A stretch of DNA of 64,000 bases from the IMG/VR virus record IMGVR_UViG_3300002170_000002, positions 1 to 64,000 of that record; one strand, 5' to 3'. Below the pieces are notes generated by a model. That model was not told the origin of the DNA. It ran no database searches and saw nothing but the letters and a program-made list of their open reading frames with translations. Every line of letters begins with the position of its first letter. Positions within the stretch are counted from its first letter, which is position 1. Both the position numbers and the translations under genes were made by a program. The stretch comes from an uncultured virus (IMG/VR IMGVR_UViG_3300002170_000002) (Duplodnaviria; Heunggongvirae; Uroviricota; Caudoviricetes). Of this stretch, positions 24,528 to 37,812 are shown piece by piece.

Positions 24528-25331
24528 CTAATCTTCGATTATTTCACTATCTACAAAAGTAACAGCATCAGACTGTCTTAATCCTTCCCCATCAAAACCA
24601 AACATAGCGTTCAATTCCTTAACAGATTCAGTAATGGCAGCTTGAGTATTCTTAGACAATCTTCTNCCAGCCAATAACTTAGCTGTTTCTTCCATAGCCT
24701 TTCTTTCATCCCACATTCCTTCTTCTACATTCTCTTTAATTAAGGCTAATCGCATCTCTAAAGCAGTATTATTATCTTGAATCTCTTCTTCTGCTGCCTG
24801 TATAAGGTTTCTAAGAGCTCTTGTACTATCTTCCCTACTCCACATAGCCCTTTCTACGAACATAAGGTCTAATTTAGACTCTATGTACTGTTTATAAGCT
24901 ATCATATAAGGTTTTTTCTCTAAAGTTCTGGCTCTGGCTACCATAGTAGAGGATTTAAGGGGTTTCCTTGTCTTTTTATCTGTCTTACCAAAAGCCTGAA
25001 TGTATGCATCCTCTAAAGTAAACCCAGATACCCTTAATTCACCAAACTGCTTCTCATCTTGAGAAAGGGGGAAAAGAGGAATTTGATACTCTTCCATTAA
25101 AGATTCCCCATCCATAATACTTTTCACTAAGTTCTGGTAACCAAAGCCCCTATCTACAGGGGTATCCCAAGGCTCTCCACTTTTAGTAGAATCTTTATAC
25201 ATCTCTTTATCATATTCATCCAGTCTATCCCAAGGATTGTCATCTCTATCCTTGTTATTTTCATCCCAAGGATTGTCATCTCTATCTAATTCACTGTCTA
25301 ACCTCTCCTCATCTATCCTTTCATTACTCAC
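24528..25331 (-). CDS. terS: Terminase small subunit, with acidic N-terminal extension
   Basis: Immediately upstream of terL; HTH-like LS..EKQF.......DAY.QAF...A..L...P.M.AY; A...LN.MFG near the end; N-terminal DRDDNPWD repeats. Confidence 0.7.
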   Translation of the reverse strand: MSNERIDEERLDSELDRDDNPWDENNKDRDDNPWDRLDEYDKEMYKDSTKSGEPWDTPVDRGFGYQNLVKSIMDGESLMEEYQIPLFPLSQDEKQFGELRVSGFTLEDAYIQAFGKTDKKTRKPLKSSTMVARARTLEKKPYMIAYKQYIESKLDLMFVERAMWSREDSTRALRNLIQAAEEEIQDNNTALEMRLALIKENVEEGMWDERKAMEETAKLLAXRRLSKNTQAAITESVKELNAMFGFDGEGLRQSDAVTFVDSEIIED

Positions 25332-25554
25332 TCTATTTCACCTCCCTATACTCTTCTATTCTCTCATTCCCTTCTTTTTCTAACAAAGTGGGGGAAATAT
25401 TTACCAATCACATTAGTGATTGGGGAAGAAAGAATTTAACAGAATTCCACATAGTAAGAAAAATATATTATATAATACTATACTATACAAACTAAGACCA
25501 AAGTAAAGTTCACTAAAGTGTACATTCCATTAGACATTAATACATCAACTACTA

Positions 25555-25597
25555 TTTATAGCACAGAACCTATAATTATGCAATTTTTCAATGGTGT
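25555..25597 (-). promoter_or_regulatory. Putative late promoter for the packaging operon
   Basis: ACACCATT-6bp-TTGCAT-17bp-TATAAA with extended TG. Confidence 0.55.
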
Positions 25598-26450
25598 AAA
25601 GCCCTTTAACAATTATTTAACTATTGGGGGGGAGAAGAGAATACCAAAATACATATAATAAATATACATATAGAGAAAAGAATATCATATAGTAATAATA
25701 CTATATAGTATATACATTAGAATGACAATAAATTGACAATGAGGATAAATAACCTATTAGATAATCTATATACAAAACCTTTAGTAAATTCCACGTAGAG
25801 TGTGAAAAAATATACCTTTACTATAAATTTCCACACGAGTGCATATTTATTTTCCTATGGGGCGCATCCCTGCTAAAGTACTTTGACATTGATTTAACAG
25901 AAAACTTTAACAAAGTAAAGTCCCAAAGAACAATGACAAACAAAAGACAATATAATTTAACTATATAATAGAAGAAAGTCATATAGAAGATTGTTAAATA
26001 AAACTTAATGTTTAATGTAACTAAACAGTAAAATGTCTGTATAATGTGTATATTTCAACGTTTGTTAAAGGAAAAAAATAATTAATTCACAAAATAGGAA
26101 TGGATTTATATACTCCATAATCTGTATATAACCGTATACATATACATAAACGGGACTACATTTTCCATACTACCATGCATATGGTCTAATGTTCAAATTT
26201 CAACGTTTAATGCTTATTTTACCCTATGTTACATGCCTATTATATATGCATATATATCCTATACCTTTAGTATCTATACCCTATATGATGTATATCTATT
26301 ATATAGTCTATTAGATTATTCTTTCCCCCAAATTGTTAATAGTTTATCTATTGTATATTATACTGTTTATGGTATACTTAATAGCGTGCTTTTCCCTCCC
26401 CCAATAATTAGTTATCATGGGATAAGAGAATATTATTGCATCTGGGCTAT

Positions 26451-26482
26451 AAAAAAGGATACCCGATTATGGGTATCCTTTC
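26451..26482 (-). terminator. Intrinsic terminator ending the early gene cluster
   Basis: AAAGGATACCC-6nt-GGGTATCCTTT hairpin with a T-run on the minus strand. Confidence 0.8.
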
Positions 26483-26488
26483 ATTGCA

Positions 26489-26710
26489 TTACTTGAAAAT
26501 GTGATATCTTCCACAATCTCTTACAATTGTGTAGTTCTTAAATCTGTAAACTTTCGCTCTTCGTGAAAATGTTAACAGGGTTTCCATTCCCACGATGTGA
26601 TAGGTTCTGTCACTTATTTGTACAATTTCCCTTCCACGAACTATATAGTTCGTGAAAGGTTTGCCGTTCATTACTAAACGGCTGAAGTTGCCATGATATT
26701 TTTTTATCAT
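26489..26710 (-). CDS. Hypothetical early protein
   Basis: ORF track; start moved to ATG 26710 after SD AGGAGG. Confidence 0.65.
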   Translation of the reverse strand: MIKKYHGNFSRLVMNGKPFTNYIVRGREIVQISDRTYHIVGMETLLTFSRRAKVYRFKNYTIVRDCGRYHIFK

Positions 26711-26724
26711 TTTATTTTTTCCTC

Positions 26725-26967
26725 CTACAATTGCATTAACCAATAATACACGCCGTCAACGTGTACTAAAACGCATAGACCATAGTATCCTAATAAATGT
26801 TTGAGGATCTGTTCCTGTAGTTCGTGATTTTCATAACAGTTCGCTATTTCATCGTATATCGTGGATAAATTAACATCCTGATATATAATCTCATAACCTG
26901 AGTTAATGAGTTCCCGTAACTCGTTTTCATCAGTTTCCCATACATAATCTTGTAAAATTTCTGTCAT
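26725..26967 (-). CDS. Hypothetical acidic early protein
   Basis: ORF track; SD AAGGAGG. Confidence 0.7.
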   Translation of the reverse strand: MTEILQDYVWETDENELRELINSGYEIIYQDVNLSTIYDEIANCYENHELQEQILKHLLGYYGLCVLVHVDGVYYWLMQL

Positions 26968-26989
26968 TTTACTTTACCTCCTTAAAGTA

Positions 26990-27286
26990 CTAAATAAACT
27001 TCGTGTCTGTTATTGATTTCTCAACCAACACTGACTGTTGCTTTAGGTTGGTTTTAATATTCAAAGCTAATGCCTTAATCTTTACGGATATATCATCATC
27101 TGATAAGATGATGAGCGTATACGAATCTTCCATTTCGCCGCGCCAAACACCGGCAAAATTCTTTATAAGAGTCGCGCCGTCAATACCGGCACATTCCAAC
27201 AATGCAGTTGTTAAGTTTTTAACATATCCCTCTTCTTTTTCCACGCCATTATGATTCGTGGAAAATGTAACGCTATACTTTATCAT
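26990..27286 (-). CDS. SAM-lyase-like / DUF3574-like small protein (putative anti-restriction)
   Basis: Pattern G.T......GVWRGEMEDS ... A..IK..LKQQSVLV resembles phage SAM lyases and DUF3574. Confidence 0.5.
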   Translation of the reverse strand: MIKYSVTFSTNHNGVEKEEGYVKNLTTALLECAGIDGATLIKNFAGVWRGEMEDSYTLIILSDDDISVKIKALALNIKTNLKQQSVLVEKSITDTKFI

Positions 27287-27304
27287 AGTAAACTCCTCCT
27301 TTTT

Positions 27305-27469
27305 TTACGATTCAAAGAATAAAATTAGGTCAACCATATCATTGAATTGTTGAGCTTCTAAATATTGTAATGCTTTATCATTGTCCTTGAGTTGAGAATA
27401 AAGTCGACCATATAATCCTTGTAATTGTGCTAACATTTTAATGCTGTTTAGTATTTCTTGTTTATTCAT
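27305..27469 (-). CDS. Hypothetical early protein (MNKQEILNSIKMLAQLQGLYGRL...)
   Basis: ORF track; start at ATG 27469 after SD GGAGG. Confidence 0.7.
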   Translation of the reverse strand: MNKQEILNSIKMLAQLQGLYGRLYSQLKDNDKALQYLEAQQFNDMVDLILFFES

Positions 27470-27716
27470 TGAGTCCTCCTTCTTGTACATAGTATTCAGT
27501 TAACAGATCCCATTCAATGGGATCAATTAGTTTATAGATCCGTTCCGCGGCTTTAGCTATGCGCGGATCATTGTCACTCATAAGTGATAGATCCTCGTTG
27601 TCATACTTATGAATGACAACGGCATAGCTATCAAATTTTGCCTCACCATCCCATGGTGAGGTTGCACGGATCACAATGTGATCCTTGATTAAGTTGATCT
27701 TTTCTTGTTTATTCAT
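27462..27716 (-). CDS. Hypothetical early protein, GATC-rich cassette
   Basis: ORF track; own promoter upstream; flanked by an 18-bp direct repeat. Confidence 0.7.
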   Translation of the reverse strand: MNKQEKINLIKDHIVIRATSPWDGEAKFDSYAVVIHKYDNEDLSLMSDNDPRIAKAAERIYKLIDPIEWDLLTEYYVQEGGLNE

Positions 27717-27828
27717 TGTGTTCCCCCCATTTCTTTATTTATTATAAGTATAGCAGATACCCTACCGCTTGTCAATTAAGTTTTTTTATGACCTCATTAA
27801 TTATTCCTATGACCTATAATATTTTTTA

Positions 27829-27924
27829 GGAAAACCTTTTCCTTTGGTTTAACATTCCAAAATAAATAATTATTCGTTTTTACCCTCATTTTACTTAGGG
27901 AAAACGATTTCCTTTGGATTATCA
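27829..27924. promoter_or_regulatory. Pair of GGAAAAC-NN-TTTCC palindromes (LacI-family/cre-like), each followed 6 bp later by TTRWCA
   Basis: 27829-42 and 27899-912; homologous sets at 33317/33388/33453 and 34282/34354/34416. Confidence 0.6.
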
Positions 27925-27950
27925 TTCATAATAATAAATACATGGTATGC

Positions 27951-27979
27951 TTGACTTTTAGGTTTATATCATATATAAT
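27951..27979 (+). promoter_or_regulatory. Plus-strand sigmaA promoter reading into the repeat arrays
   Basis: TTGACT-17bp-TATAAT; no credible ORF downstream. Confidence 0.6.
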
Positions 27980-28023
27980 AAATGGTGGGACAGTACGCCT
28001 ATGATTTAGTTGATAGGTAAACC

Positions 28024-28347
28024 TTGATAGTTATTTGTCAATGGTGATTAACCTGTTAGTTGTTTGTCAATGGTGATTAACCTGTTAGTTATTTGTCAAT
28101 GGTGATTAACTTGTTAAACAGTTCACAAACCCTTTTTGTGAAATGTTTCTCAGATTATGAACTTTGTGAAATGTTTCTCAGATTATGAACTTTGTGAAAT
28201 GTTTCTCAGATTATGAACTTTGTGAAATGTTTNTCAGAATTGGTCTGATAATTATTTCACAGGATATGAACTTTGTTAATTATTTCTCAAAGGTTATATC
28301 CTGTTATTAAATTATCAGAATCTTGGTTATTGACTATATATTATCAA
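28024..28347. repeat. Array of 12 imperfect palindromes at 25-29 bp spacing (29-bp repeat x3, 28-bp repeat x4, plus diverged copies), Rex-operator-like
   Basis: Cores start at 28024, 28053, 28082, 28111, 28136, 28164, 28192, 28220, 28245, 28273, 28301 and 28330; best copy TTGTTAA-ACAG-TTCACAA. Confidence 0.85.
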
Positions 28348-28404
28348 GGTTAAGAATTGTGTATATAAAGTGTCAAAGTAGATATAAAGAAAAAGTTAAG
28401 AATT

Positions 28405-28507
28405 AGCCCTTATAAAGGGTCGGATAAGTCCTTATAAAGGGTCGGATAAGCCCTTATAAAGCAAAGGTTAAGCCCTTATAAAGCAAGGGTTAAGCCCTAT
28501 ATATGTA
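28405..28507 (+). repeat. 22-bp iteron-like array, copy 1 (AGYCCTTATAAAG-N8-A x4, then AGCCCTATATATGTA)
   Basis: Read directly; same architecture at 34631-34733. Confidence 0.9.
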
Positions 28508-28530
28508 AAAAACCTAACAATTAAGTTAGG

Positions 28531-28578
28531 CTAATGTTTTTACTAATGTTTTTACTAATGTTTTTACTAATATTTTTT
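28531..28578. repeat. 12-bp tandem repeat CTAATGTTTTTA, about 3.5 copies
   Basis: Read directly, just after the hairpin CCTAAC-AATTAA-GTTAGG. Confidence 0.85.
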
Positions 28579-28657
28579 ATTCTTTATTTAGTTTTATTGA
28601 TTTCTCCTTTCTCCCAAATTTTTGATTATTCTTGATAATTTTTGATAATCTTTTTCT

Positions 28658-28918
28658 TCATTGTTTCCCCTTTAGATATTTTTCACTTGCTTTTCTTATT
28701 TCCCCCTCTTCCAATATTTCATCTTCTGCATCAAATAATAATTCTATCAAAAATAATTCATAATATTCCTCTTTATCTTTTTGTGTTGTTAGATTCTTTT
28801 CTACTTCTTTTATTTCTTCTAATTCTTCCAATATTTTTTCTTTTGCTTTTTCTAAAACTTCATCAGTGAATAACTTCTCAAACTTTTTTCGTTCTTTTTC
28901 AAAATACTCTACAATCAT
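28658..28918 (-). CDS. Hypothetical Glu/Lys-rich protein
   Basis: ORF track; SD GAGGAGG. Confidence 0.65.
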   Translation of the reverse strand: MIVEYFEKERKKFEKLFTDEVLEKAKEKILEELEEIKEVEKNLTTQKDKEEYYELFLIELLFDAEDEILEEGEIRKASEKYLKGKQ

Positions 28919-29181
28919 TTATTACCTCCTCTCTTGCCCCAAATGGGAAAACATTTCCAGAAAGTGGGAAAAACTTTCTGAATCTAAAATACAATTTCTC
29001 CCAATCTGAAATACAAACCCCCCTCCCCCTAAAATGGAAAAACTTTTCTCAATCCAGAATCCATATTTCCGCAATCTGTATTCCATTTTTTAGCGTAATC
29101 TTTTTAGCATAATCTTTATGACACTCAAGTACTTGCCCTCTTAATCTGAACATTAAATTAAGAGGGCGGGGTAAAAGCTGC

Positions 29182-29733
29182 TTAAAATCCTGACAATTTT
29201 GTTACAATATCCTTTAGAGATTTTGTATATCTGGTAAGCTTTCTCTTAAACTCTTTCTCTGTCAATTTATTCTCATAAACTTCATCTAAAAACTTTTCTC
29301 TCGTTTCTTCTGACACTTCTGGTTTCCATTGTCTAAAGGTATAGTAATTAGTACCGTCATGGTGGATATCTTTTGCTACTAAATTATAATTATCCAAACC
29401 TAAACTATACATATCGCCTTGAAATATTGACAAGACTTCATTCAATTGATTACTCATTTCTTTATACCCTTTTACTCTACCCCTCCACAATCCTAAATCT
29501 GCAAATACAATGATATCGTCTACAAGGTGGTGATACAGCATATCTTCTACATACTCAAAGTTTTCTCTTTCCAGTTCATAGATAAAATTGTATAATTCTT
29601 CATCTGTTGGTTCTGATTCATATCCAAACTTCTCAGCTTCAGCCCCGTAAAAGTCGTGATAAACTTCTCTATATTCTTCCAGTTCTTCATCTGTATAATG
29701 ACCAATATCTAACAAAGTATTTTTCAATTTCAT
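29182..29733 (-). CDS. Hypothetical acidic protein with ADLGLWRGR..GYK and HHDGTNYY motifs
   Basis: ORF track; motifs recalled from uncharacterised Firmicutes mobile-element proteins. Confidence 0.75.
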   Translation of the reverse strand: MKLKNTLLDIGHYTDEELEEYREVYHDFYGAEAEKFGYESEPTDEELYNFIYELERENFEYVEDMLYHHLVDDIIVFADLGLWRGRVKGYKEMSNQLNEVLSIFQGDMYSLGLDNYNLVAKDIHHDGTNYYTFRQWKPEVSEETREKFLDEVYENKLTEKEFKRKLTRYTKSLKDIVTKLSGF

Positions 29734-29800
29734 TTCTTTACCCCTTCCTGATTTTTGTAATTTATTTTTGTGCTGTCTTTCTGTGTATTATTTTTGTGTA

Positions 29801-30181
29801 TTATTTTTCCGTAAAAGGTTCGTGATACCCGTGTTCTTCCCAATCACTTTTATCATAGTATTGTGTTACCAAAACCGCATTGTCGGTTAACAATTCTATC
29901 AATGTTTGTAGTTCTTGCGTATAAGGTAATCCAATTGAAAACTCTCCAGAAAACTCATAAAACTCAAAACATTTCCTATCTTCATTCACTACTTCCGATT
30001 CTCCAAATATTTCAATGCTATCTTTTTTACGTTGGATTGAGATACCATAGCAAACGTCAAGGCTTCTATTTTCGTAAAGGGTGTTGACTTCTTCCCCTTT
30101 CAGTAAGGCTTTCCAGATTTCATTAATTCCATTGTAGGGTACCTCATGATAATTAAAATCCTCAAACAAAGTTCTGTCCAT
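29801..30181 (-). CDS. Hypothetical acidic protein
   Basis: ORF track; start moved to ATG 30181 to remove the overlap with the JAB gene. Confidence 0.65.
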   Translation of the reverse strand: MDRTLFEDFNYHEVPYNGINEIWKALLKGEEVNTLYENRSLDVCYGISIQRKKDSIEIFGESEVVNEDRKCFEFYEFSGEFSIGLPYTQELQTLIELLTDNAVLVTQYYDKSDWEEHGYHEPFTEK

Positions 30182-30215
30182 ATCTTTTCCCCTTCTACTT
30201 GTTTTTTTCTCCTTG

Positions 30216-30659
30216 TTATAAGTTTCCTTTTTCCTTAAAGCTATAAAAATTACCACTACCGACTATAAGGTGGTCTAACACTTCAATACCAACTAATTTA
30301 CCAACCTCTACAAGCCGTTTTGTTATCGATACATCTTCTCTTGATGGGCTTGGGTCTCCTGAGGGGTGGTTGTGCAGCAGCATAATGTTATTTGCACTTG
30401 CTACGATTGCTTTTTTAAACACTTCACGTGGGTGGACTAAAGTTTGATTTAATATGCCAATTGACACGATGTAGTTACCAATCGGTTTTAGTTTTGTATC
30501 TAAGAGGATAGCCGCAAACGCTTCTTTATCTTCTTCTATATATTCGTTTAGTATTTGTTTTCCTAATTCGTAGAGTAAGTCTGGACTATTTATATTTTTT
30601 CTTCCATCGTGATATATCCCTGTTTTTTCTTTTATGAGTTTGATTGTTGGTAAATCCAT
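30216..30659 (-). CDS. radC: RadC-like JAB-domain protein
   Basis: VHPREVFK.A, HNHPSGDPSPSREDVSIT and GIEVLDHLIVG motifs. Confidence 0.92.
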   Translation of the reverse strand: MDLPTIKLIKEKTGIYHDGRKNINSPDLLYELGKQILNEYIEEDKEAFAAILLDTKLKPIGNYIVSIGILNQTLVHPREVFKKAIVASANNIMLLHNHPSGDPSPSREDVSITKRLVEVGKLVGIEVLDHLIVGSGNFYSFKEKGNL

Positions 30660-30778
30660 TTTTCCGCCTCTTTCTGTATCTAATACTAATATATCATATT
30701 TTCAGGTGTTTGTCAAGGGTTGTCAAGGGGTATTTTCTAAATTTTCAAGTAATTCCATGTAGTAGTTAACGATTAAAT

Positions 30779-30955
30779 TTATTCTATTGTATGGTCGATA
30801 TAGTCCGTAAGCTCAATATAGTACTTGCCCTCCATGTTCCTATAGAGTACAACGTTCAGACCTTTGTAATTACCATAACATCGACCGCCAAATTCCGATA
30901 GAAAATTATTGTATGTTGCCTGTGTGACCTCCATCTTGACGTTTTTTATAATCAT
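30779..30955 (-). CDS. Hypothetical early protein
   Basis: Start at ATG 30955 after SD GAGGAGG; own promoter. Confidence 0.65.
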   Translation of the reverse strand: MIIKNVKMEVTQATYNNFLSEFGGRCYGNYKGLNVVLYRNMEGKYYIELTDYIDHTIE

Positions 30956-31092
30956 GCTATAACCTCCTCTTTCATTTGTAATACTAATATACCATATTTT
31001 TAGGTGTTTGTCAAGGGTTATCAAGAGGTATTTTCTAAATTTTCATCGGGCGGTTGGTGGAAAATAGGGTAGTCAACCGCCCGATATTTCAT

Positions 31093-31347
31093 TTAAATGT
31101 ATGGTCTCAAGTCGTGGGTATTAATTGGCACAAATTCACTTGTTACCATGTCCGCATAGCTTTTAATCCAGTTTGTTTGTTTACTTGTAGTGGGTGAATA
31201 TTTCGTGCTATTAAATAGCACTTTATCCTCAACCCATTGGACTATTACCGTATTGTATGAAAAAAGTTTATCCCCTGTCGATGTCATATTCAGCGATTTA
31301 CCTTTTTCACCTTTTAAGAATCTTTCCCCAACTTGTTGGTTTGTCAT
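31093..31347 (-). CDS. Hypothetical early protein (SYNT.I ... YS.TTSK motif family)
   Basis: ORF track; own promoter and SD; followed by a 12-bp-stem hairpin at 31045-31085. Confidence 0.75.
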   Translation of the reverse strand: MTNQQVGERFLKGEKGKSLNMTSTGDKLFSYNTVIVQWVEDKVLFNSTKYSPTTSKQTNWIKSYADMVTSEFVPINTHDLRPYI

Positions 31348-31426
31348 AGAATAGCCTCCTTCTTTATTGTAATACCATTATACCATACTTTTATTGGTTT
31401 GTCAAGTGCTTTTTCAAATAATTCAT

Positions 31427-31783
31427 CTATTCATCGTCATCTTCTTCTTCAACCCCGTACAGTTCGATTTCGTTCTCGTTTACATATTCCAAAATTTCAT
31501 CTCTAAACTGGTCGAAATAATCTTGCAAATAGTGTTCATTAGGGATTGACTCCAGATTGCCATATCCGTCAAATGAAAAATATTCATCGTTGGGATTAAA
31601 CGGGTCTTGACTAAACTTGTACCGCCCGCCATAGAATGCCGCCATGATTGCTTCCTCTACATCATGCCCGAAAGCCCCGCTCAGTTCACCCATGTAAAAA
31701 ACCTCGTTACCATAATATCCCAATTCGCCCATAATCTCGTTGAATTGTCCTAACTCAATGCCATTAATATTATTGTATTTCAT
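31427..31783 (-). CDS. Highly acidic early protein (FNPNDEYFSFDGYGNLES motif)
   Basis: ORF track; own promoter. Confidence 0.75.
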   Translation of the reverse strand: MKYNNINGIELGQFNEIMGELGYYGNEVFYMGELSGAFGHDVEEAIMAAFYGGRYKFSQDPFNPNDEYFSFDGYGNLESIPNEHYLQDYFDQFRDEILEYVNENEIELYGVEEEDDDE

Positions 31784-31855
31784 TTCTTTTCCTCCATTTG
31801 TTTATTGTAATTACATTATATCATGCTTTTACTAACTTGTCAAGTGTTTTTTATA

Positions 31856-32053
31856 TCAGTATTCAATCCGCCCAGATTCAACAGCTTTTCCCAAATTATC
31901 AGCATCATCGAAATAAAATTCTCCGATATCGTCTGGTACTGATGCACCCTTTATCCATACGACTTTACCGTTGACCTCAAACCGTAAATCCATCGTACCG
32001 TCTCCATTGGCTATGGTCTCATATAAATTTTCTTCGATTAGATGTTTTTTCAT
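31856..32053 (-). CDS. Hypothetical early protein
   Basis: ORF track. Confidence 0.65.
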   Translation of the reverse strand: MKKHLIEENLYETIANGDGTMDLRFEVNGKVVWIKGASVPDDIGEFYFDDADNLGKAVESGRIEY

Positions 32054-32073
32054 TTTTTACCCCCATTTTTTGG

Positions 32074-32283
32074 TTAAAGAGCGAACATAAATGATGCCGC
32101 TTCTCTGTCGCTACTAATGAAATCTCCTCTGTATGTTACAAACTTTTGAACTAATTCTTTGCCCTCAGCTGTTGCCAAAAACTCGTCAAACGCTTTAACA
32201 GCTTCGTCATATCCCGCTACCCTGTCGCTGTTTGAATACAAAAAATCGTATTCGTTGTTAAAATCATCAAGTAGTTTTTTCAT
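32074..32283 (-). CDS. Hypothetical early protein
   Basis: ORF track; own promoter and SD AAGGAG. Confidence 0.7.
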   Translation of the reverse strand: MKKLLDDFNNEYDFLYSNSDRVAGYDEAVKAFDEFLATAEGKELVQKFVTYRGDFISSDREAASFMFAL

Positions 32284-32389
32284 TTTTTTCTCCTTTCTCT
32301 CTATCTACTTATAGTATAGCATAAGTTAGGGCGGGTGTCAAGTCTTTTGTAAAAGTATTTTTATTGTCTTATTGCTTTAGTAGAGTAAG

Positions 32390-32830
32390 TTAACTAAATA
32401 TAGTTCTGTCAAATGTTTCATCTTCTTTCGCTAATATTTCCATTACAATCGTTTCAGGGTCGTTCTCTTCCTCAAATTCGGGTAGTCGTCTGTCAATCTC
32501 AGTCATAAGAATACCAAATGCGGTAGAGTGGATTATAAATTCGTCTAATGCCTCTGTGTCGGGAATAGATATTAATTTTTGTTCTGTCTCTACAAAGTAT
32601 TGCCCATGCGGATTAAATTCGCTATCTCTACCGTAAGGGTTAAAGTTTCCGCCATTTCTTGCCATATCTAAAACGTATGAGTGACTATAGGGTAGATTGT
32701 CAATTTCTTCCATAAACTTCAATTCATCACCCCACCCAAAAAACTTGTAGAACTTAAATTTTGAGTCAACGTCTATGCTTCGGATATATTCTTCTGCTTT
32801 AATTCTTACCGCTGTTCTTTTTTTGTACAT
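32390..32830 (-). CDS. Acidic early protein, distant paralogue of 31427-31783
   Basis: Shared FNP...YF......L.SIP....L.(D/E)(Y/F) pattern; own promoter. Confidence 0.7.
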   Translation of the reverse strand: MYKKRTAVRIKAEEYIRSIDVDSKFKFYKFFGWGDELKFMEEIDNLPYSHSYVLDMARNGGNFNPYGRDSEFNPHGQYFVETEQKLISIPDTEALDEFIIHSTAFGILMTEIDRRLPEFEEENDPETIVMEILAKEDETFDRTIFS

Positions 32831-33002
32831 ATTTTTCCTCCTTTTTCTCCTTTCTCTCTATCTACTTATAATATACCATACTTTTTCTGTTCTGTCAAGC
32901 CTTTTTTCATCTTTTTTCTAAATTCTTTTAGGGTTTTATACCCCCGCTTTTATCAATAGTAATCATTACATTTTCCAGTGGTACAATGCTAGGGTTTTTG
33001 TA

Positions 33003-33200
33003 CTATTTAATTCCTATAAATTTTTCTATCGAATCTCTGTACAAATTGTATTCGCTTGCCGTAATTAGACCACGCTTTTTTGTTTTCATATATAGAGTCA
33101 ATTTCTCTACCCCAAATTCAAACAACGGTTTGTCTTGTTCATAATACTGTTCTTTCATTACTTTTACAATTTCTTCAATCCTCTTTTGCCTTGCATTCAT
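33003..33200 (-). CDS. Hypothetical early protein
   Basis: ORF track; own promoter and SD AAGGAG. Confidence 0.65.
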   Translation of the reverse strand: MNARQKRIEEIVKVMKEQYYEQDKPLFEFGVEKLTLYMKTKKRGLITASEYNLYRDSIEKFIGIK

Positions 33201-33480
33201 TTTTTAGTCTCCTTTTCTTCCTTTTTTGTATCTAATACTAATATAGCAGATACCTTCCACCTTGTCAATACCTTTTTGCCCTTAATTCCTCATTTTATCC
33301 TCATAATATTTTTTTAGGAAAACCTTTTCCTTGCAATTATCACACTAAAGTGAGTAATTATTCATTTTTACCCTCGTTTTACCCCAAGGAAAACGATTTC
33401 CTTTGGATTATCATTCAGAGTAATAAATAATAAATCTTTTCTCTTTTTTGTATGAAAAGGCTTTCCTCTTGAGAATAAAT

Positions 33481-33512
33481 AAAAAAAAGATAACCTAAAT
33501 AATTAGGTTATC
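33481..33512 (-). terminator. Intrinsic terminator after the J-domain gene
   Basis: GATAACCTAA-ATAA-TTAGGTTATC followed by a T-run on the minus strand. Confidence 0.75.
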
Positions 33513-33993
33513 CGTTTAATGCTTTTTGTTCTTGTGTTTCTATTTTTTGGCTACCGTACCTATTTCTCAAGGTGTTAAACTTTTCTTTCTTGTAATATCC
33601 TGTTGAATCCAGTCCTATTGTACTATAGTACCATTTTTTCCGACCTTTAGACCACCTAAACCCGATTTTCTTTAAGTCCTCTCTATAGGGATAGCTGTTG
33701 CCCCCTATCCATATCCAGTAACCTATGATTTCAATTTCTAACCCTTCCATATGGACTAACTTATCAATGATTCTGGGGTAGGTTTTCGCTGTTTCTTCTG
33801 TGGCTTCTTTTGCTGAGTTCGGTTTCTGATATTTCTCTCTAAATTTCATTGCCTCAAATAAGTTTTCATATTCATCATTAAGCTTTTTCATTTCCGTATC
33901 ACTACCCCCGCAATCTGGGTGTAGTTTCATCGCCCATTTTCTATATTCTTTCTTTAGGTGTTCAAGGCTTTCAATGTTTTTAAGGTATTTCAT
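33508..33993 (-). CDS. J-domain (DnaJ-like HPD) protein
   Basis: LKKEYRKWAMKLHPDCGG...MK.LN.EYE; C-terminal IEIIGYWIWI.G......LK..GFRWS...K.WY domain. Confidence 0.85.
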   Translation of the reverse strand: MKYLKNIESLEHLKKEYRKWAMKLHPDCGGSDTEMKKLNDEYENLFEAMKFREKYQKPNSAKEATEETAKTYPRIIDKLVHMEGLEIEIIGYWIWIGGNSYPYREDLKKIGFRWSKGRKKWYYSTIGLDSTGYYKKEKFNTLRNRYGSQKIETQEQKALNG

Positions 33994-34178
33994 GTTTTCC
34001 CTTTCCTTTCTTTTTTTGGGGGGAATCTGTTTTGTGGTATTTCCTATCTGACCTTAATGTATCATATTTTTAGAATCTTGTCAACCCTTTTTGACCTTTT
34101 TTCTATCTTTTTTAGTTTCTTCCTCCCCTCCTTTATATAAGGTAGTTATTCGGATTATAAATTATTTTTCTAAAGCCC

Positions 34179-34207
34179 TTGACAACGGGAATCATATATG
34201 GTATACT
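34179..34207 (+). promoter_or_regulatory. Plus-strand sigmaA promoter with no downstream ORF
   Basis: TTGACA-17bp-TATACT with extended TG. Confidence 0.65.
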
Positions 34208-34465
34208 AAAGACAGTTAGAAGAGATAGCGAACAGATTACTCATTGGAACAATATGCGTAAAACACGCAGGGATAAAATAGGGAAAACCTTTTCATTTAG
34301 ATTGTCACAGAAAAAATGAATAAACATTCTTTTTATTATGCATTTTTCAGGTAGGAAAACGATTTCTTTTCATTTATCATTCACTTTTTTGCATAAATTC
34401 CCAATATTTTTAAGGGGAAAACGGTTTCACTCTCCTTTAACGTTAAAAAGTTATCACAAAAACCC

Positions 34466-34494
34466 TTGACTTTTGGAATGGTATCTGGTATACT
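34466..34494 (+). promoter_or_regulatory. Plus-strand sigmaA promoter upstream of 22-bp array copy 2
   Basis: TTGACT-17bp-TATACT with extended TG; positional counterpart of the promoter at 27951. Confidence 0.65.
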
Positions 34495-34630
34495 CAAGAG
34501 GGATATATTAGGAAAAAATAGCTGTATATTTCTTAACGAACTGATGTATCTATTTCCTACCCTGAAGTATGAAAGAATATAGTGAAAGATATAAAAGGGA
34601 AGAGAAGATATAGATATAAAGATAGAGAAT

Positions 34631-34733
34631 AGCTCTTATAAAGGAACAGATAAGTCCTTATAAAGGCTCGGAGAAGCCCTTATAAAGAGTTGGAGAAGCC
34701 CTTATAAAGAGTTGGAGAAGCCCTATACGTGTA
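34631..34733 (+). repeat. 22-bp iteron-like array, copy 2
   Basis: AGCTCTTATAAAG / AGTCCTTATAAAG / AGCCCTTATAAAG x2 at a 22-bp period, then AGCCCTATACGTGTA. Confidence 0.9.
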
Positions 34734-35363
34734 CAGCTCACACAACTTTCTTACGATAAAGTTTTTCAGAAGTTAAAATTTTTGTTTAGCTAAGTTTTAG
34801 CTTAGAAGTTTTTGGAATAAAGAATGAGAGAAGTTAATTTTCCTCTCCCCAAACTTTTGCAAAATATTGAGAAATTGTGAATCGAATAAAAGGCTTTATA
34901 GAGCCATTCTGATTTGATTGAAATTCTTTGACATATACTTACCTCCTTAAAAATCTCAATTCAATTAACTCGTCTTTTTATCTTTTTGTTGATGTTTTGA
35001 AGATGGCTTGATTTCAACGTCTGTGAGATGTTTTCTTATTTTCTGTTTTTACAAACTTTATTTTCAATAAATTGGCTACAAATGGCTTGATTTCAATGGT
35101 TACAGGTAGTTTTTTAATTTTTATAAAATTCAAGGTATACCCTCAATTTTACAATTTTTGCTTTTTAGGGGGTAAATCGATGTAGAAATGCTTGGGATGG
35201 GAAAACTTTTCTGACCTTGGGGGAGGTTTTTCTGAATCTAAAGTCCAATTATGGGAAATTCTTTCTGGCATTTTGGGAAAACTTTTCTGAATCTAAAGTC
35301 CACTGATTGTGAATAAAAAGTTCACAATCTAAAGTCCACTGATTATGAATCAAAAGTTCAAAT

Positions 35364-35390
35364 AAAAAGGAAGGTAATTTCCTACCCTCC
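35364..35390 (-). terminator. Intrinsic terminator downstream of iscB and the replication module
   Basis: GGAGGGTA-GGAAAT-TACCTTCC-TTTTT on the minus strand. Confidence 0.7.
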
Positions 35391-35456
35391 CCTAACTTTA
35401 GTGAATTTTTTAACGTACTGATTTTTAACTCTCCTTGGCAAGAAGTCCTCCATCCT

Positions 35457-36722
35457 CTATAGGTGGAGGATGAATTGCCAATTATTGTTATGATTTACAA
35501 ATTCTAAATGTTTGAAACTTACTTGTTTATGTGTTTTATCTGGTATTGTCATATAACTATTTTCTATATCTTTTATATAACATCCACCACTTGCAAAACC
35601 ACTTATAAAACCTACCTTACCAAAGGCTCTTACTTTGTCATTTAGATAAAAACCATTTTGATATTTAGTATTCTTACTATTCCTTTTTTGCGTTTTGTTA
35701 GGTTCTTTTCTACCTTTCCTAGCTATTGCTTCATGTAAACTACGTTTTTTCTTTCTAAACTGTTTGACTTTGAATATACCTACACTATCTATAAAATCTT
35801 TTTCTACTTGGGAAATAACTAATGCATCATTATAATGTGTTTTTTCTAAACTTAGTTCTTTTCTTCTTGGTGTAGTCCAACTCCCATAAACTATATTGGC
35901 ATTAGGATATTTCTGAAAAACCCTTTGCCTAATTGTATTCATAAAAGGTGTTTCCTTATAGCTTGGTGCTTTCTTTTTGTTTATCATCCAATCATATAGA
36001 ACACCACCTTCTTTGTGGTTTTTACTAGTATGACAATCAGTACAAACTGTAATTAGATTATCTGCTCTATTACTTCCACCCTTTGAAACATATTTGATAT
36101 GATGTGTTTGTAATGTTTTATCTTTCTTTTTACAAACTTGACAAGTGTAGCTATCTCTAGCGAACACATAATATCTTATATCATAATATCCATATGTTTG
36201 CCCTTTTTGATAATCAGTACCTTCTATTTTTGGATTAATCATTTTCTGTACATCAAATTTACCAACTTCAATATTTAGCTTAGGGTTAGGTAATAAATCT
36301 ACAAATTTGTCAATCCACATAAAAGTATTATCTATCCTACTTTGAATTGATGGTGGTAACCACCCTTTAGACTTTTTTCTATTATCATACCTAGGCTTTC
36401 TATATCTAGTCTTTCTATACCTTCTACCTCTACGATATTGCCTTCTAGTGTCTAGTAATGATTTTACATCTTGTCTTAGTTCTATCTCACCCTTTGTAAT
36501 TACTTTGTTTTCTGATTGTATAGCTATGCCTATATACTTTGCACCTAAATCAATGCCAATATTAATAGGTTGTTTAGCTTCGCCAGTTACATACAATAAT
36601 TGTATTGTAAAAGGTTTGTAGTTAATTACTTTAGCTTTATTTTGCTTTAGTAACTTTCTTGCTTTTTGAGGAGTGGTAGGCATTAAAGCCTCTCCTCTTA
36701 AATTTTTGACATATACTCTCAA
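35457..36722 (-). CDS. iscB: RNA-guided endonuclease IscB
   Basis: N-terminal ALMPT (PLMP domain), RuvC-I GIDLG, Arg-rich bridge helix RRQYRRGRR, RuvC-II IEVGKFD, HNH C..C...HHI...GGS...NL..VC..CH, RuvC-III HYNDA. Confidence 0.95.
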   Translation of the reverse strand: MRVYVKNLRGEALMPTTPQKARKLLKQNKAKVINYKPFTIQLLYVTGEAKQPINIGIDLGAKYIGIAIQSENKVITKGEIELRQDVKSLLDTRRQYRRGRRYRKTRYRKPRYDNRKKSKGWLPPSIQSRIDNTFMWIDKFVDLLPNPKLNIEVGKFDVQKMINPKIEGTDYQKGQTYGYYDIRYYVFARDSYTCQVCKKKDKTLQTHHIKYVSKGGSNRADNLITVCTDCHTSKNHKEGGVLYDWMINKKKAPSYKETPFMNTIRQRVFQKYPNANIVYGSWTTPRRKELSLEKTHYNDALVISQVEKDFIDSVGIFKVKQFRKKKRSLHEAIARKGRKEPNKTQKRNSKNTKYQNGFYLNDKVRAFGKVGFISGFASGGCYIKDIENSYMTIPDKTHKQVSFKHLEFVNHNNNWQFILHL

Positions 36723-36975
36723 GATATGTCCTCCTTTCAGAGTTGTTACCCTTCGACAATGTTATTATAGCTTATATGTGAGAACATACACATTAGGTTC
36801 ACTGTTCCTACTCATCAGAACTGTTTAGAGTGCCTACACAGAGCTTAGAACTAGGGTATCATTCTAAGGTGTGATAACTATAATAACGTAGTAAATTAAT
36901 ACTTAGTCTAGTCAATCATAGCTTTACAAGCTCCCACTTCAAGTGTCATTAGACTCTAAGTGGTGAGTTATTGAC
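36723..36975 (-). ncRNA. omegaRNA (HEARO-like) scaffold
   Basis: About 250-nt leader starting GTCAA...TTGAC and containing CTACGTT, CTAGTTCTAAGCTCT and ACATTGTCGAAGGG, features typical of IscB leaders. Confidence 0.8.
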
Positions 36976-36980
36976 TATAC

Positions 36981-37397
36981 TTATTCGTATATATCTATCT
37001 CTCCCAATTCATTTATGGATTCTAATAGTGGCAACGCTTTAATAGTGCAATATCCATACAGTCTATAGCCTAAAGGTTCCAACTCATCTGTTTCTTTATT
37101 GTAATATCTTTCCGTTGTGAAATCATGAAAATAGTACATCTTCTCCCCATCTTTATCTTTTAGTTTCAATAACTCATTCACTTCTTCTCGTGTATGAAGA
37201 GGTTGGGTATAATAGGTTATACTCTCCCCAAATTTGGGGGTGGGTGTGTCTTTTCTGGTGTATCCTTCCCTATATAGACATTCCTCTGCTGCTTCAATAG
37301 ATGTAAAAGCTACGCTCCATAGGTAGCTATGATTGTAATCATAAAGTTCTTCATCATCGTAGGTGATTGTATATACATATTTCTTCTCTTTACTCAT
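36981..37397 (-). CDS. Hypothetical protein
   Basis: ORF track; start trimmed to ATG 37397. Confidence 0.65.
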   Translation of the reverse strand: MSKEKKYVYTITYDDEELYDYNHSYLWSVAFTSIEAAEECLYREGYTRKDTPTPKFGESITYYTQPLHTREEVNELLKLKDKDGEKMYYFHDFTTERYYNKETDELEPLGYRLYGYCTIKALPLLESINELGEIDIYE

Positions 37398-37812
37398 TGA
37401 GATTCTCCTTTCCCCCATTTTTATAGTACTTCCAGTACCAATTGGCTTTGGCTACATCTTCTTCAAACTTACCTTTGAAGGGGGCACGTAAAAGATACTT
37501 TAGGATGTTGCCAAACACATACCCCTTATCTCCTTGCATATTCTTTGTAGCTTCTGTAATGATATCAATGACTTCTAAGTCTCCATACTGGTTGTAGTGT
37601 TTAGGGTGGTGCACTACACTGTCCATATGCTGTAGGGCATCTTCATAAACTTCTTGGAAGAATTCATCAGAATTAAACTCATCAGAATCAAACTCTTCAT
37701 CTTCTTTGTACAAGTCATAAAACTCTTTATAATTCTCTTCTCTCATTTTAGCTAACTTTTCTCCAGTCGTCTCTCTTTCCATAGCTTCCCTATTCATGAC
37801 ATCCCCTTCCAT
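37390..37812 (-). CDS. DUF3310 (SaV-like) domain protein
   Basis: DSVVHHPKHY...EVIDII...GNILKY..RA..KG...EDV.KA.WY. Confidence 0.88.
   Translation of the reverse strand: MEGDVMNREAMERETTGEKLAKMREENYKEFYDLYKEDEEFDSDEFNSDEFFQEVYEDALQHMDSVVHHPKHYNQYGDLEVIDIITEATKNMQGDKGYVFGNILKYLLRAPFKGKFEEDVAKANWYWKYYKNGGKENLNE

What the first reader, a model, noticed from the sequence alone, without database searches (positions are those of the whole stretch)
27745..35360. Two homologous non-coding blocks with the same ordered series of operator-like arrays: possible transcription-factor decoy or entry-control platform
Seen: block A (27745-29090) and block B (34140-35360, with a partial third copy at 33240-33470) have the same order: cre-like palindromes about 70 bp apart, a plus-strand TTGACTTTT promoter with no ORF, 4x22-bp repeats with the same terminal half-unit, then TGGGAAAA-N-TTTCTGAATCTAAA motifs. 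Block A adds the Rex-like array. Sequences between motifs have diverged while motifs and spacing are kept. Inference: selection for protein binding. About 3 kb of binding sites among early genes could titrate host global regulators as the genome replicates, couple early expression to carbon and redox state, or act like a staged-injection or anchoring signal. I know of no description of such a system.
Basis: partly seen in the sequence, partly recalled or inferred. Interest (0 to 1): 0.82.

Follow-up and report, generated by a model that had tools for sequence, protein, structure and literature searches.

The report
Duplicated origin-like control modules in phage
Two look-alike, mostly gene-free stretches in a new phage from biogas digesters carry the same ordered sets of protein-binding repeats and backward-facing promoters, and are most likely paired replication-origin and early-control modules, not a proven trap for host regulators.

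Summary
Block A (27745-29090) and block B (34140-35360) share three collinear homologous segments, and a partial third copy lies at 33220-33470. Every motif class is confined to these regions and far exceeds shuffled expectation. Motif cores are kept while spacers drift: palindromes 26 of 28 invariant columns against 55 of 131 elsewhere; 22-bp repeat cores 51 of 52 against spacers 19 of 36.

The window is 64 kb of a 65.8-kb virulent-looking, SPP1-like siphophage with no close relative. All its genes lie on the minus strand. The blocks flank a 5-kb cassette of small early genes that varies between metagenome variants, while the blocks persist.

Each block reads: LacI-type palindromes, a strong promoter facing against all genes, a purine-rich leader, 4.5 direct 22-bp repeats with a non-palindromic core, then T-rich repeats. 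In A these T-rich repeats are among the easiest DNA to melt in the genome.

My best reading (about 0.4) is paired iteron-type origin and early-control modules, analogous to SPP1 oriL/oriR. No initiator protein was identified, and B lacks a clear melting region. A purely transcriptional hub is the main rival. The decoy and staged-injection ideas remain untested and are not favoured. Block A is not fully non-coding: it holds a conserved 86-aa gene.

The parts
27747..27775 (-). Early host-type promoter (TTGACA, 17-nt spacer, TATACT, with TG) heading the five-gene operon 27716-26489
   Evidence: homologous to the promoter at 33240-33268 (family D9)
27829..27912 (.). Block A palindrome pair: 27829-27842 (CC centre) and 27899-27912 (CG centre), 70 bp apart. 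They lie between the divergent promoters at 27775 (minus) and 27951 (plus).
27951..27979 (+). Strong promoter facing against all genes (TTGACT, 17-nt spacer, TATAAT), with no ORF behind it
28020..28116 (.). 29-bp tandem array, 3.3 copies, found in block A only
28111..28319 (.). Rex-like array. Sites at 28111 and 28273 flank a 28-bp tandem array of 3.7 copies (28135-28238). It ends in a 32-nt inverted repeat (28244-28319). Found in block A only.
28405..28503 (.). 22-bp direct repeats, 4.5 units, with a conserved non-palindromic 13-nt core and a variable 9-nt spacer (iteron-like)
28511..28532 (.). Hairpin that can terminate transcription in both directions (it ends the 86-aa gene transcript)
28531..28597 (.). 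12-bp T-rich repeats, 3.9 copies. This is the fifth easiest 60-bp window to melt in the genome (top 0.09% of windows).
28658..28918 (-). 86-aa acidic coiled-coil gene with a strong ribosome-binding site. It lies inside block A, and its C-terminus varies among variants.
28944..29078 (.). Third motif class (TGGGAAAAC..TTTC, then TGAATCTAAA) in a unit of about 70 bp repeated twice, directly upstream of the 86-aa gene
29182..33993 (-). Variable cassette of 11 listed small early genes (including RadC-like and J-domain proteins). Eight consensus extended -10 promoters serve this stretch, most genes having their own.
33240..33468 (.). Partial third copy: minus-strand promoter 33240-33268, palindromes 33317-33330 and 33388-33401, and a degenerate third palindrome at 33455-33468
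34056..34084 (-). Early promoter of the J-domain gene (33508-33993)
34179..34207 (+). Strong promoter facing against all genes. It is 77% identical over 35 nt to the promoter at 63922.
34282..34429 (.). Block B palindromes at 34282, 34354 and 34416 (spacings 72 and 62 bp)
34466..34494 (+). TTGACT-type promoter facing against all genes, the counterpart of the one at 27951
34563..34632 (+). The most purine-rich plus-strand window of the whole genome (80% against a mean of 43%). It lies between the promoter and the 22-bp array.
34631..34728 (.). 22-bp direct repeats, about 4.5 units, paralogous to 28405-28503
34779..34814 (.). Weak T-rich repeats (period 16, 2.4 copies). This stretch is not especially easy to melt (top 4.3% of windows).
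35010..35105 (+). Two copies of the oriented motif GATTTCAAYGKTT, including the 28-nt stretch identical to 63653-63680
35197..35360 (.). Third motif class arranged as 55-bp and 36-bp repeats
35366..35393 (-). Terminator hairpin between the IscB element and block B

Best explanation
Each block is a composite control module at a boundary between gene blocks of a virulent phage. Its centre is built like an iteron-type replication origin.

Proposed mechanism:
- A strong host-type promoter faces against all genes and has no ORF behind it.
- It would transcribe a purine-rich leader into 4.5 direct 22-bp repeats. These repeats are binding sites for monomers of a phage initiator that has not been identified.
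- T-rich short repeats follow, and the duplex can open there.
- The LacI-type palindromes about 80 to 210 bp upstream set the activity of that promoter and of the divergent early promoter. They would do so through a host or phage regulator.

Block A has the full set and is the better candidate for an active origin. Block B keeps the repeats but has no clear melting region. It may therefore act as a second initiator-binding locus for control or fork arrest, as proposed for SPP1 oriR.

What is shown and what is inferred:
- Shown: the anatomy, the paralogy of the blocks, the constraint on the motifs, and the persistence of the blocks in variants.
- Inferred: protein binding, transcription from the plus strand, and any role in replication.
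For: 1. The 22-bp arrays have a conserved, non-palindromic 13-nt core and a variable spacer: 51 of 52 core positions identical against 19 of 36 spacer positions (Fisher p 2e-7). They sit at a two-turn period, and the core occurs at most 1 mismatch away nowhere else in the window.

2. In A the array is followed within 30 bp by 3.9 T-rich 12-mers. These form the fifth easiest 60-bp window to melt among about 65,700 windows.

3. Both arrays lie downstream of homologous strong plus-strand promoters with no ORF. The plus-strand window before the B array is the most purine-rich in the genome, and the one before the A array ranks tenth. This fits real plus-strand transcripts that could form RNA-DNA hybrids.

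4. The blocks are present in all three DNA metagenome variants laid. X3 covers 27289-27886 and 33869-35280. X4 covers 28203-29130 and 32991-37839. X10 covers 34896-35294 and shows depth in the A bins. The genes between the blocks are deleted or replaced.

5. The phage has its own replisome: DnaB-like helicase, DnaC-like loader, primase, SSB, PolA, clamp and clamp loader. It has SPP1-like packaging genes.

6. [quoted passage not shown] One of them lies in an intergenic segment with moron genes (PMC6316719 passages).

7. Earlier notes of this scan describe twin origin-like early modules in T1-like and rV5-like phages. These are unchecked leads only.
Against: - No initiator was found. Pfam and PHROGs give no Rep, DnaD or O-like protein.
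- The basic 299-aa protein in the replication module has only 3 relatives in 1.8 billion representatives and no family assignment.
- Block B has no strong melting region (top 4.3% of windows only).
- Better melting regions lie in two other non-coding regions, 25654-25713 and 63401-63460. The second of these also has a cluster of DnaA boxes at 63845-63888. The true origin may therefore be there.
- A primer RNA made from a plus-strand promoter would send the fork head-on into all transcription.
- The extra arrays, the palindromes and the third motif class are not needed for an origin.
- No related phage with these blocks could be fetched, so conservation is shown only between paralogues in one genome and within one lineage at 93-99% identity.
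Confidence: 0.4

Rival explanations
1. The blocks are purely transcriptional control hubs. They hold operator arrays for phage or host regulators that time the early operons. The backward-facing promoters insulate neighbouring gene blocks by convergent transcription or antisense RNA. There is no role in replication.
For: - Palindrome sets lie upstream of, or between, promoters in all three copies. Two of the three minus-strand promoters are homologous (family D9).
- An unrelated phage contig, L023, has four GGAAAACGNTTTCC sites at 40-bp spacing directly upstream of the first promoter of a similar array of small early genes.
- Each non-coding region begins, in the direction of the genes, with the terminator of the upstream gene block, followed by a promoter facing back at it.
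- The third motif class sits directly upstream of the 86-aa gene, where no host-type promoter was found.
Against: - The 22-bp arrays overlap no promoter. The nearest strong one is 137 bp away in B and about 425 bp away in A.
- Their core is not palindromic, unlike typical repressor operators.
- The T-rich repeats next to the A array are unexplained by this reading.
Confidence: 0.3
2. The blocks are a decoy platform. As the genome multiplies, the cre-like and Rex-like arrays titrate host global regulators and derepress host carbon and redox regulons.
For: - The motif cores resemble LacI-family (cre) operators.
- Six Rex-like sites with at most 2 mismatches lie in 28111-28290. The whole window holds 18 sites at up to 3 mismatches, against 6.7 expected.
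- The same palindrome occurs in unrelated phage contigs L022 and L023, which share no protein with this phage in the fetched parts (phmmer E <= 0.1 found none). That favours a host factor.
Against: - Only 1 of 7 palindromes is within 1 mismatch of the recalled cre consensus.
- 3 of 7 palindromes lack the central CG.
- All four 28-bp units deviate in the same half-site.
- The CodY consensus is not enriched: 8 found against 9.5 expected.
- The sites keep fixed positions relative to promoters.
- The host and its regulators are unknown.
- One literature search for phage decoy sites gave only synthetic or cellular decoy papers (listing only).
Confidence: 0.08
3. The blocks are non-coding RNA loci. 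The plus-strand transcripts across the repeat arrays act as RNAs, for example as sponges for a protein or small RNA, or as repeat mimics against CRISPR.
For: - Strong promoters without ORFs precede purine-rich plus-strand leaders.
- Contigs from an RNA library overlap parts of the blocks. These are contigs only, the strand is unknown, and DNA carry-over is possible.
Against: - The block B transcript region folds no better than shuffles (z -1.2; 12 of 100 shuffles fold at least as well).
- Rfam gives nothing near threshold. The best CRISPR repeat family scores 23.4 bits against a cutoff of 47, E 0.98.
- The conserved 22-nt core does not form a conserved hairpin.
Confidence: 0.08
4. The blocks are homologous flanks that serve recombination. 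Direct repeats bracket the variable early-gene cassette, so that whole cassettes can be exchanged or lost between co-infecting phages.
For: - The cassette between the blocks differs among variants by deletions and replacements.
- The blocks lie in direct orientation 6.2 kb apart.
Against: - The observed joints lie in the repeated gene promoters, not in the blocks: 30728 to 31027, 30702 to 32991, and 32058 to 32855.
- A and B share only 74-78% identity over 100-146 nt, which is poor substrate for homologous exchange.
- This reading does not explain why motifs are conserved better than spacers.
Confidence: 0.06
5. The blocks are packaging, terminal-repeat or staged-injection signals. They would mark the borders of a long terminal repeat that holds the early genes.
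For: - A cassette of small early genes with strong host-type promoters resembles the terminal-repeat regions of T5 and SPO1 (recalled, not tested).
- The recognition blocks are homologous at both borders.
Against: - TerL is of the Terminase_3/Terminase_3C type, and its only hit among solved structures is 2WBN/2WC9. The portal is of the SPP1 family, and a Mu F-like head protein follows. This is the SPP1-like module, which by recall packages by the headful from a pac site.
- A separate 1.1-kb non-coding region lies directly upstream of the putative small terminase gene.
- Only contigs, not raw reads, were available, so read depth and ends could not be examined.
Confidence: 0.05

Closest known systems
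Bacillus phage SPP1 oriL and oriR (PMC6316719, passages read)
   Same: - Both are siphophages with the same type of packaging and portal genes.
- Each has two separate regions of similar organisation, with direct repeats next to AT-rich DNA.
- One region lies in an intergenic segment together with small accessory genes.
- In SPP1 the second site is proposed to bind the initiator and stall forks rather than to fire.
   Different: - There is no sequence similarity, and no gp38-like protein was found here.
- oriL lies inside the initiator gene, whereas these blocks lie among early genes far from the replication genes.
- Here each block also carries LacI-type palindromes, backward-facing promoters and a third motif class.
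- Block A adds two further tandem arrays.
Iteron origins of lambda and of plasmids such as P1 (origin iterons plus a second control array flanking repA); recalled, not read here
   Same: - About four to five direct repeats of roughly 20 bp, next to an AT-rich region.
- Transcription towards or through the origin (lambda).
- A second iteron array that titrates or pairs with the first (P1 incA).
   Different: - No Rep gene lies between or beside the arrays.
- No DnaA box lies in the blocks. The only perfect cluster is at 63845-63888.
- This is a virulent phage, not a plasmid.
Promoter-primed origins of T7, T4 and ColE1
   Same: - A strong promoter without an ORF, followed by a leader and easily opened DNA.
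- A purine-rich transcript that could form a persistent RNA-DNA hybrid.
   Different: - Those origins have no iteron arrays.
- Here the promoters are of host type and are flanked by operator-like palindromes.
cre / LacI-family operators (CcpA sites in PMC8359418; LipR site in PMC10989752)
   Same: - A 14-bp dyad with the GAAAACG.TTTC core.
- Near-identical sequences are listed as CcpA-bound or LipR-bound sites.
   Different: - The outer positions are G and C instead of T and A.
- 3 of 7 sites have a CC centre without CG.
- Only 1 of 7 sites is within 1 mismatch of the recalled consensus.
- The binder and the host are unknown.
Rex operators: Bacillus-type consensus (recalled); Clostridiaceae consensus from a PMC8457756 passage
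   Same: - Perfect left half-site.
- Six sites in 180 bp with at most 2 mismatches.
   Different: - The right half-site of all four tandem units carries the same two mismatches.
- The array is present in block A only.
PeSL cassettes of T4-type phages (PMC2839356 abstract and outline; PMC4122927 seen in the listing only)
   Same: This applies to the cassette between the blocks, not to the blocks themselves.
- Small non-essential genes, each with a strong host-type early promoter.
- Variants differ by deletions and replacements whose joints lie in the repeated promoter sequences.
   Different: - The phage group and host phylum are different.
- Mini-circles were not looked for.

Membership tests
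Iteron-type replication origin | Three or more direct repeats of about 17-22 bp with a conserved core, phased on the helix | tested here: met
   4.5 units of 22 bp in each block. Core 51 of 52 positions identical between blocks, spacer 19 of 36.
Iteron-type replication origin | Adjacent AT-rich unwinding element | tested here: inconclusive
   Block A meets it: 28538-28597 is the fifth easiest window to melt, top 0.09%. Block B does not clearly meet it: its best window is only in the top 4.3%.
Iteron-type replication origin | A cognate initiator protein encoded by the element, usually beside the repeats | tested here: inconclusive
   No Rep, DnaD or O-like family was found in 28+27+23 ORFs scanned. 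The neighbouring J-domain protein has a C-terminal domain of unknown fold. The basic 299-aa orphan lies in the replication module.
Iteron-type replication origin | Supports initiation of DNA synthesis | not testable with these tools
   This needs marker-frequency data, 2D gels or plasmid origin assays. Only assembled contigs of public runs were available.
cre (CcpA operator) | Match to TGWAANCGNTNWCA (consensus recalled) | tested here: not met
   Only 1 of 7 palindromes (34416) is within 1 mismatch. The whole window has 8 matches against 3.28 expected. 3 of 7 have no central CG.
cre (CcpA operator) | Bound by host CcpA-HPr-Ser-P | not testable with these tools
   The host is unknown. Similar sequences are CcpA-bound in another species.
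Rex operator | Match to TTGTGAANNNNTTCACAA or TTGTTAANNNNTTAACAA | tested here: inconclusive
   Site 28111 has 1 mismatch to either form. The four tandem units and site 28273 have 2-3 mismatches. All sites with at most 2 mismatches to the Bacillus form lie in block A.
Long terminal repeat border or staged-injection signal | Terminase and packaging module of a fixed-end, long-repeat type; doubled read depth between the borders | tested here: inconclusive
   The packaging module is SPP1-like, which argues against this. Read depth and read ends could not be read from contigs.
CRISPR repeat mimic (RNA anti-CRISPR) | Repeat unit matching a CRISPR repeat family | tested here: not met
   The best Rfam CRISPR-DR match scores 23.4 bits against a cutoff of 47, E 0.98. 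Host arrays were not searched.
PeSL-like shuffling cassettes (for the genes between the blocks) | Small genes bracketed by repeated strong early promoters, with indel joints in those repeats | tested here: met
   There are 8 consensus promoters with TG between 30716 and 34084 and repeat families D2, D4, D6 and D13. Joints occur at 30728 to 31027, 30702 to 32991 and 32058 to 32855.

The most novel reading that the evidence does not exclude
A virulent phage of anaerobic Firmicutes wires sensors of host metabolic state directly into its start-up circuitry. Arrays of look-alike operators for host LacI/CcpA-type and Rex-type regulators gate backward-facing promoters. Those promoters in turn fire iteron origins and insulate early gene blocks. 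Replication and early expression would thus be licensed by the carbon and redox state of the cell. As genome copies accumulate, the same arrays would drain those regulators from the host.

The recurrence of the same palindrome in front of early-gene arrays of unrelated phages (L023, L022) would make this a general strategy.
Probability: 0.15. Interest if true: 0.8.

Novelty: new variant of a known kind. Interest (0 to 1): 0.5.

Why it matters
Replication origins and early control regions are unmapped for most virulent phages of Gram-positive anaerobes, and this phage lineage has no characterised relative.

The two blocks offer a concrete set of elements to test at the bench:
- a 13-nt iteron core
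- a palindrome pair
- three homologous backward-facing promoters

If the iteron reading holds, it extends the SPP1-type twin-origin design to a distant lineage. It would also link that design to host-type operators.

If the host-regulator reading holds, it would be a rare case of a lytic phage reading, or draining, host carbon and redox regulators through DNA sites alone.

The region is also a clean natural example of early-gene cassette shuffling at repeated promoters outside the T4 group.

Tried and rejected
Searches for relatives
- Nothing useful in the phage records. megablast and blastn of the blocks gave only a promoter-sized hit at 34179-34225 to Enterococcus phages.
- No exact matches in IMG/VR to the 22-bp pair pattern or to the third motif.
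- Protein anchors gave no syntenic relative. The putative TerS found none. The J-domain protein found one weak hit. ThyX found 20 loci, none syntenic by tblastn of 108 ORFs. The portal found one 4-kb contig at 99% identity.
- The J-domain anchor found no relative. The palindrome-pair pattern returned at least 120 loci of an unrelated repeat family, none related to the phage.

Host identification
- The IscB search found the closest copies (77% and 71%) on short phage-like contigs binned in Bacteroidota MAGs, and 55-60% matches in Bacillota. No host was assigned.

Candidate DNA-binding proteins
- Two protein atlas searches, tblastn and the representative search gave no family for the 299-aa or 160-aa basic proteins.
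- The J-domain protein folds with an N-terminal J domain: Z 7.0 to Tim14-Tim16 and 6.3 to the polyomavirus T-antigen J domain. Its C-terminal domain found no match, and I did not fold it alone.

RNA readings
- Rfam at E-value threshold found nothing in A, B or region D.
- The block B transcript is not unusually structured.
- The block A transcript could not be folded because of an N at 28233.

Host motifs
- The CodY consensus is not enriched.
- DnaA boxes are absent from the blocks apart from single-mismatch chance-level hits.

Metagenome data
- Contigs from the RNA library overlap the blocks only partly and cannot show strand or ends.
- Gaps in cover in individual runs are not interpreted.

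Full report
WHAT THE WINDOW IS

The window is 64,000 of 65,785 bases of a single virus contig. The contig is broken inside an endolysin gene, so the genome is essentially complete. All recognisable genes lie on the minus strand.

Read in the direction of the genes, the order is:
- a non-coding region, 64.0-63.1 kb
- replication and nucleotide genes: ribonucleotide reductase, DnaC-like loader, DnaB-like helicase, primase, SSB, PolA, clamp, recombinase, clamp loader, dUTPase and ThyX
- an IscB gene with its HEARO RNA
- block B
- a 5-kb run of small genes
- block A
- five more small genes
- a 1.1-kb non-coding region
- an SPP1-like packaging and head module: Terminase_3/3C split by two group I introns, an SPP1-family portal and a Mu F-like protein
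- tail genes

No close relative exists in the phage records. The sequence occurs in biogas, anaerobic-digester and wastewater metagenomes from 15 studies.

blastn finds three collinear homologous segments between A and B, at 74%, 78% and 83-92% identity. It also finds a 218-nt match (77%) between the left part of A and 33220-33429.

The 14-bp dyad GGAAAACNNTTTCC, at up to 1 mismatch, occurs at 7 places. All 7 are in A, B or the third copy, against 0.39 expected. The 13-nt core of the 22-bp units occurs 8 times at up to 1 mismatch, only in the two arrays. The third motif class is likewise confined to the blocks.

The two 22-bp arrays share the same variant second unit and the same terminal half unit. 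The array was therefore duplicated as a whole.

Corrections to the finding:
- Block A holds an 86-aa acidic gene with a strong ribosome-binding site (28658-28918). It is conserved at 83-93% in 11 metagenome proteins whose C-termini vary.
- Only the palindrome spacing (70-72 bp) is kept. The other distances differ between the blocks.

ANATOMY OF A BLOCK

Read on the plus strand, each block has the following order:
1. A minus-strand early promoter.
2. Two or three palindromes.
3. A strong plus-strand promoter of the TTGACT type (27951 and 34466). The nearest palindrome is centred about 80 bp upstream of the inferred start in both blocks. This figure is my arithmetic from the coordinates.
4. A purine-rich leader.
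5. The 22-bp array.
6. A hairpin and T-rich short repeats.
7. A small minus-strand gene in A, or only a ribosome-binding site with 12 codons in B.
8. The third motif class.

Block A adds a 29-bp array, a 28-bp array and a 32-nt inverted repeat between the promoter and the 22-bp array. Block B adds a further plus-strand promoter at 34179.

Block B also carries two copies of an oriented motif, GATTTCAAYGKTT. This motif has 7 sites, all on the plus strand, and 6 of the 7 lie in non-coding regions, against 0.49 expected. Through this motif B shares a 28-nt perfect identity with the region at 63.65 kb.

In a genome whose genes all run one way, five strong host-type promoters run the other way: 27951, 34179, 34466, 63698 and 63922. 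The plus-strand stretches just behind four of them rank 1, 2, 4 and 10 among the most purine-rich 70-nt windows of the genome.

CONSTRAINT ON THE MOTIFS

In the three-way alignment, 26 of 28 palindrome columns are invariant. This compares with 27 of 56 columns between the palindromes and 55 of 131 for all other fully occupied columns (Fisher p 4e-7). In the two-way alignment of the 22-bp arrays, 51 of 52 core positions agree, against 19 of 36 spacer positions (p 2e-7).

Two caveats apply. The motif columns were chosen from these same sequences. The copies are paralogues in one genome, so gene conversion cannot be excluded.

VARIATION IN NATURE

I laid contigs of three DNA runs and one RNA run on 24000-38000. 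Close variants (93-99% identity over the listed pieces) keep block B (X3, X4, X10) and at least parts of block A (X3, X4; depth in X10).

The genes between the blocks are deleted or replaced. The joints lie in the repeated promoter sequences: 30728 to 31027, 30702 to 32991, 32058 to 32855, and a 450-nt replacement at 31803-31847. This matches the PeSL shuffling described for T4-type phages (abstract of PMC2839356).

The IscB element is missing in X10. The tables were truncated (1,266 differences and 135 indels not shown), so motif and spacer rates across variants could not be computed.

WHO BINDS?

The palindromes are of the LacI/cre type.
- Sequences with the same core are listed as CcpA-bound sites in group A Streptococcus and as the LipR site in Bacillus thuringiensis (passages).
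- Against the recalled cre consensus, only 1 of 7 palindromes is within one mismatch.
- Three of the 7 have no central CG.

Block A holds six Rex-like sites with at most 2 mismatches to the recalled Bacillus-type box. One site (28111) has a single mismatch to that box and also to the Clostridiaceae box quoted in PMC8457756. All four tandem units share the same two mismatches in one half-site.

The CodY consensus is not enriched.

A pattern for two palindromes 48-64 bp apart found three IMG/VR loci:
- L023, an unrelated phage contig, has four such dyads at about 40-bp spacing directly upstream of the first of a series of small genes with consensus promoters. It has two more dyads further on.
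- L022 has three dyads after a tail gene.
- L024 is an unrelated repeat.

No protein is shared between this phage and the fetched parts of L022 and L023. This mildly favours a host factor, but the host is unknown.

WHY AN ORIGIN-LIKE READING IS PREFERRED

The 22-bp units are direct repeats. They have a non-palindromic core, a two-turn period and a variable spacer. That is the signature of sites for monomeric initiators rather than dimeric repressors. This last step is inference from established knowledge of iteron replicons.

In A the array is followed within 30 bp by 3.9 T-rich 12-mers. These form the fifth easiest 60-bp window to melt in the genome.

Both arrays lie downstream of homologous ORF-less promoters and purine-rich leaders. 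This layout recalls promoter-activated or RNA-primed origins (recalled: lambda, T7, T4, ColE1).

The phage encodes its own helicase, loader and primase. Its morphogenesis genes are SPP1-like. [quoted passage not shown] One origin lies in an intergenic segment with moron genes and is proposed to stall forks (PMC6316719 passages).

Earlier unchecked notes of this scan describe twin origin-like early modules in T1-like and rV5-like coliphages. I use them only as a hint that such duplication recurs.

WHAT SPEAKS AGAINST IT

- No initiator family was detected. The one sizeable basic orphan in the replication module has almost no relatives.
- The J-domain protein encoded next to block B has a confident J domain but an unassigned C-terminal domain.
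- Block B has no clear melting region.
- The two easiest regions to melt lie elsewhere, at 25654-25713 and 63401-63460. The second sits near a cluster of three DnaA-type boxes at 63845-63888. That region is therefore an equally good or better origin candidate.
- RNA priming from the plus-strand promoters would send forks against all transcription.
- The palindromes, the third motif class and the two extra arrays in A are more naturally regulatory.

RIVALS

- Purely transcriptional hub (0.3). It explains the palindromes, the divergent promoters and the position of each non-coding region between a terminator and the next early promoter. It does not explain the promoter-free 22-bp arrays.
- Decoy idea (0.08). 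It rests only on imperfect motif resemblance.
- RNA-level function (0.08). It finds no support from folding or Rfam.
- Recombination flanks (0.06). The observed joints lie in gene promoters, not in the blocks.
- Terminal-repeat or injection signals (0.05). The SPP1-like packaging module argues against them, although read depth could not be examined.

VERDICT

This is a real and statistically solid piece of genome architecture in an uncharacterised phage lineage. It is best read as a duplicated composite module that joins an iteron-type, origin-like core to operator-controlled divergent promoters.

This is a new variant of known designs (SPP1 twin origins, iteron replicons, promoter-activated origins), not a categorically new system. 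The role of host-regulator look-alike sites remains open and testable.

Noticed in passing
window 35425-36980: An IscB gene (35457-36722, RRXRR plus HNH domains) with its HEARO/omega RNA (36742-36975, 123.9 bits) sits in this phage right beside block B. One metagenome variant (X10) has almost no depth over it while its flanks are covered, so it looks like a recent insertion. The closest copies (77% and 71%) are on short phage-like contigs.
   Followed up: partly
window 23497-23754 and 23876-24112: Two group I introns split the large terminase gene into three exons.
   Followed up: no
window 63100-64000: A fourth non-coding region. It holds a cluster of DnaA-type boxes (63845, 63868, 63880), the second easiest DNA to melt in the genome (63401-63460), and two strong promoters facing against the genes (63698, 63922). 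It also holds a candidate structured plus-strand RNA at 63150-63400 (z -2.8) and the 28-nt stretch identical to block B.
   Followed up: partly
window 25340-26480: A 1.1-kb non-coding region directly upstream of the putative small terminase gene. It contains the easiest DNA to melt in the genome (25654-25713), two copies of the oriented GATTTCAAYGKTT motif, and a weaker backward-facing promoter at 26086. It is a likely pac region or another control hub.
   Followed up: no
window 29182-33993: The early-gene cassette behaves like the PeSL regions of T4-type phages. Most of its small genes have their own consensus extended -10 promoter (8 such promoters between 30716 and 34084), and variants differ by deletions and replacements whose joints lie in the repeated promoter sequences.
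   Followed up: partly
window 37839-40080: In variant X4 the sequence after 37839 continues with the letters found at about 40080. ThyX and the 412-aa ATPase/GNAT gene therefore appear to be absent from that variant.
   Followed up: no
window 40371-40421: An intergenic 18-bp repeat of 2.8 copies resembles the T-rich 12-mers of block A. It is the third easiest DNA to melt in the genome.
   Followed up: no
window 28233 and 24666: The assembly has two N. One lies inside the 28-bp tandem array, so the copy number of that array may be uncertain.
   Followed up: no
L023 9650-18400: An unrelated IMG/VR phage contig with an early-gene array. It carries six GGAAAACGNTTTCCTA dyads, at least 14 copies of a second 29-nt intergenic motif, and repeated promoter and ribosome-binding-site cassettes. 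The design parallels this phage and is worth its own look.
   Followed up: partly
G000 contig 64950-65785: The last 800 bases or so are 50-61% GC, against 37% for the phage. They encode the C-terminal part of a glucosaminidase-type endolysin, which suggests recent acquisition of the lysin gene.
   Followed up: no
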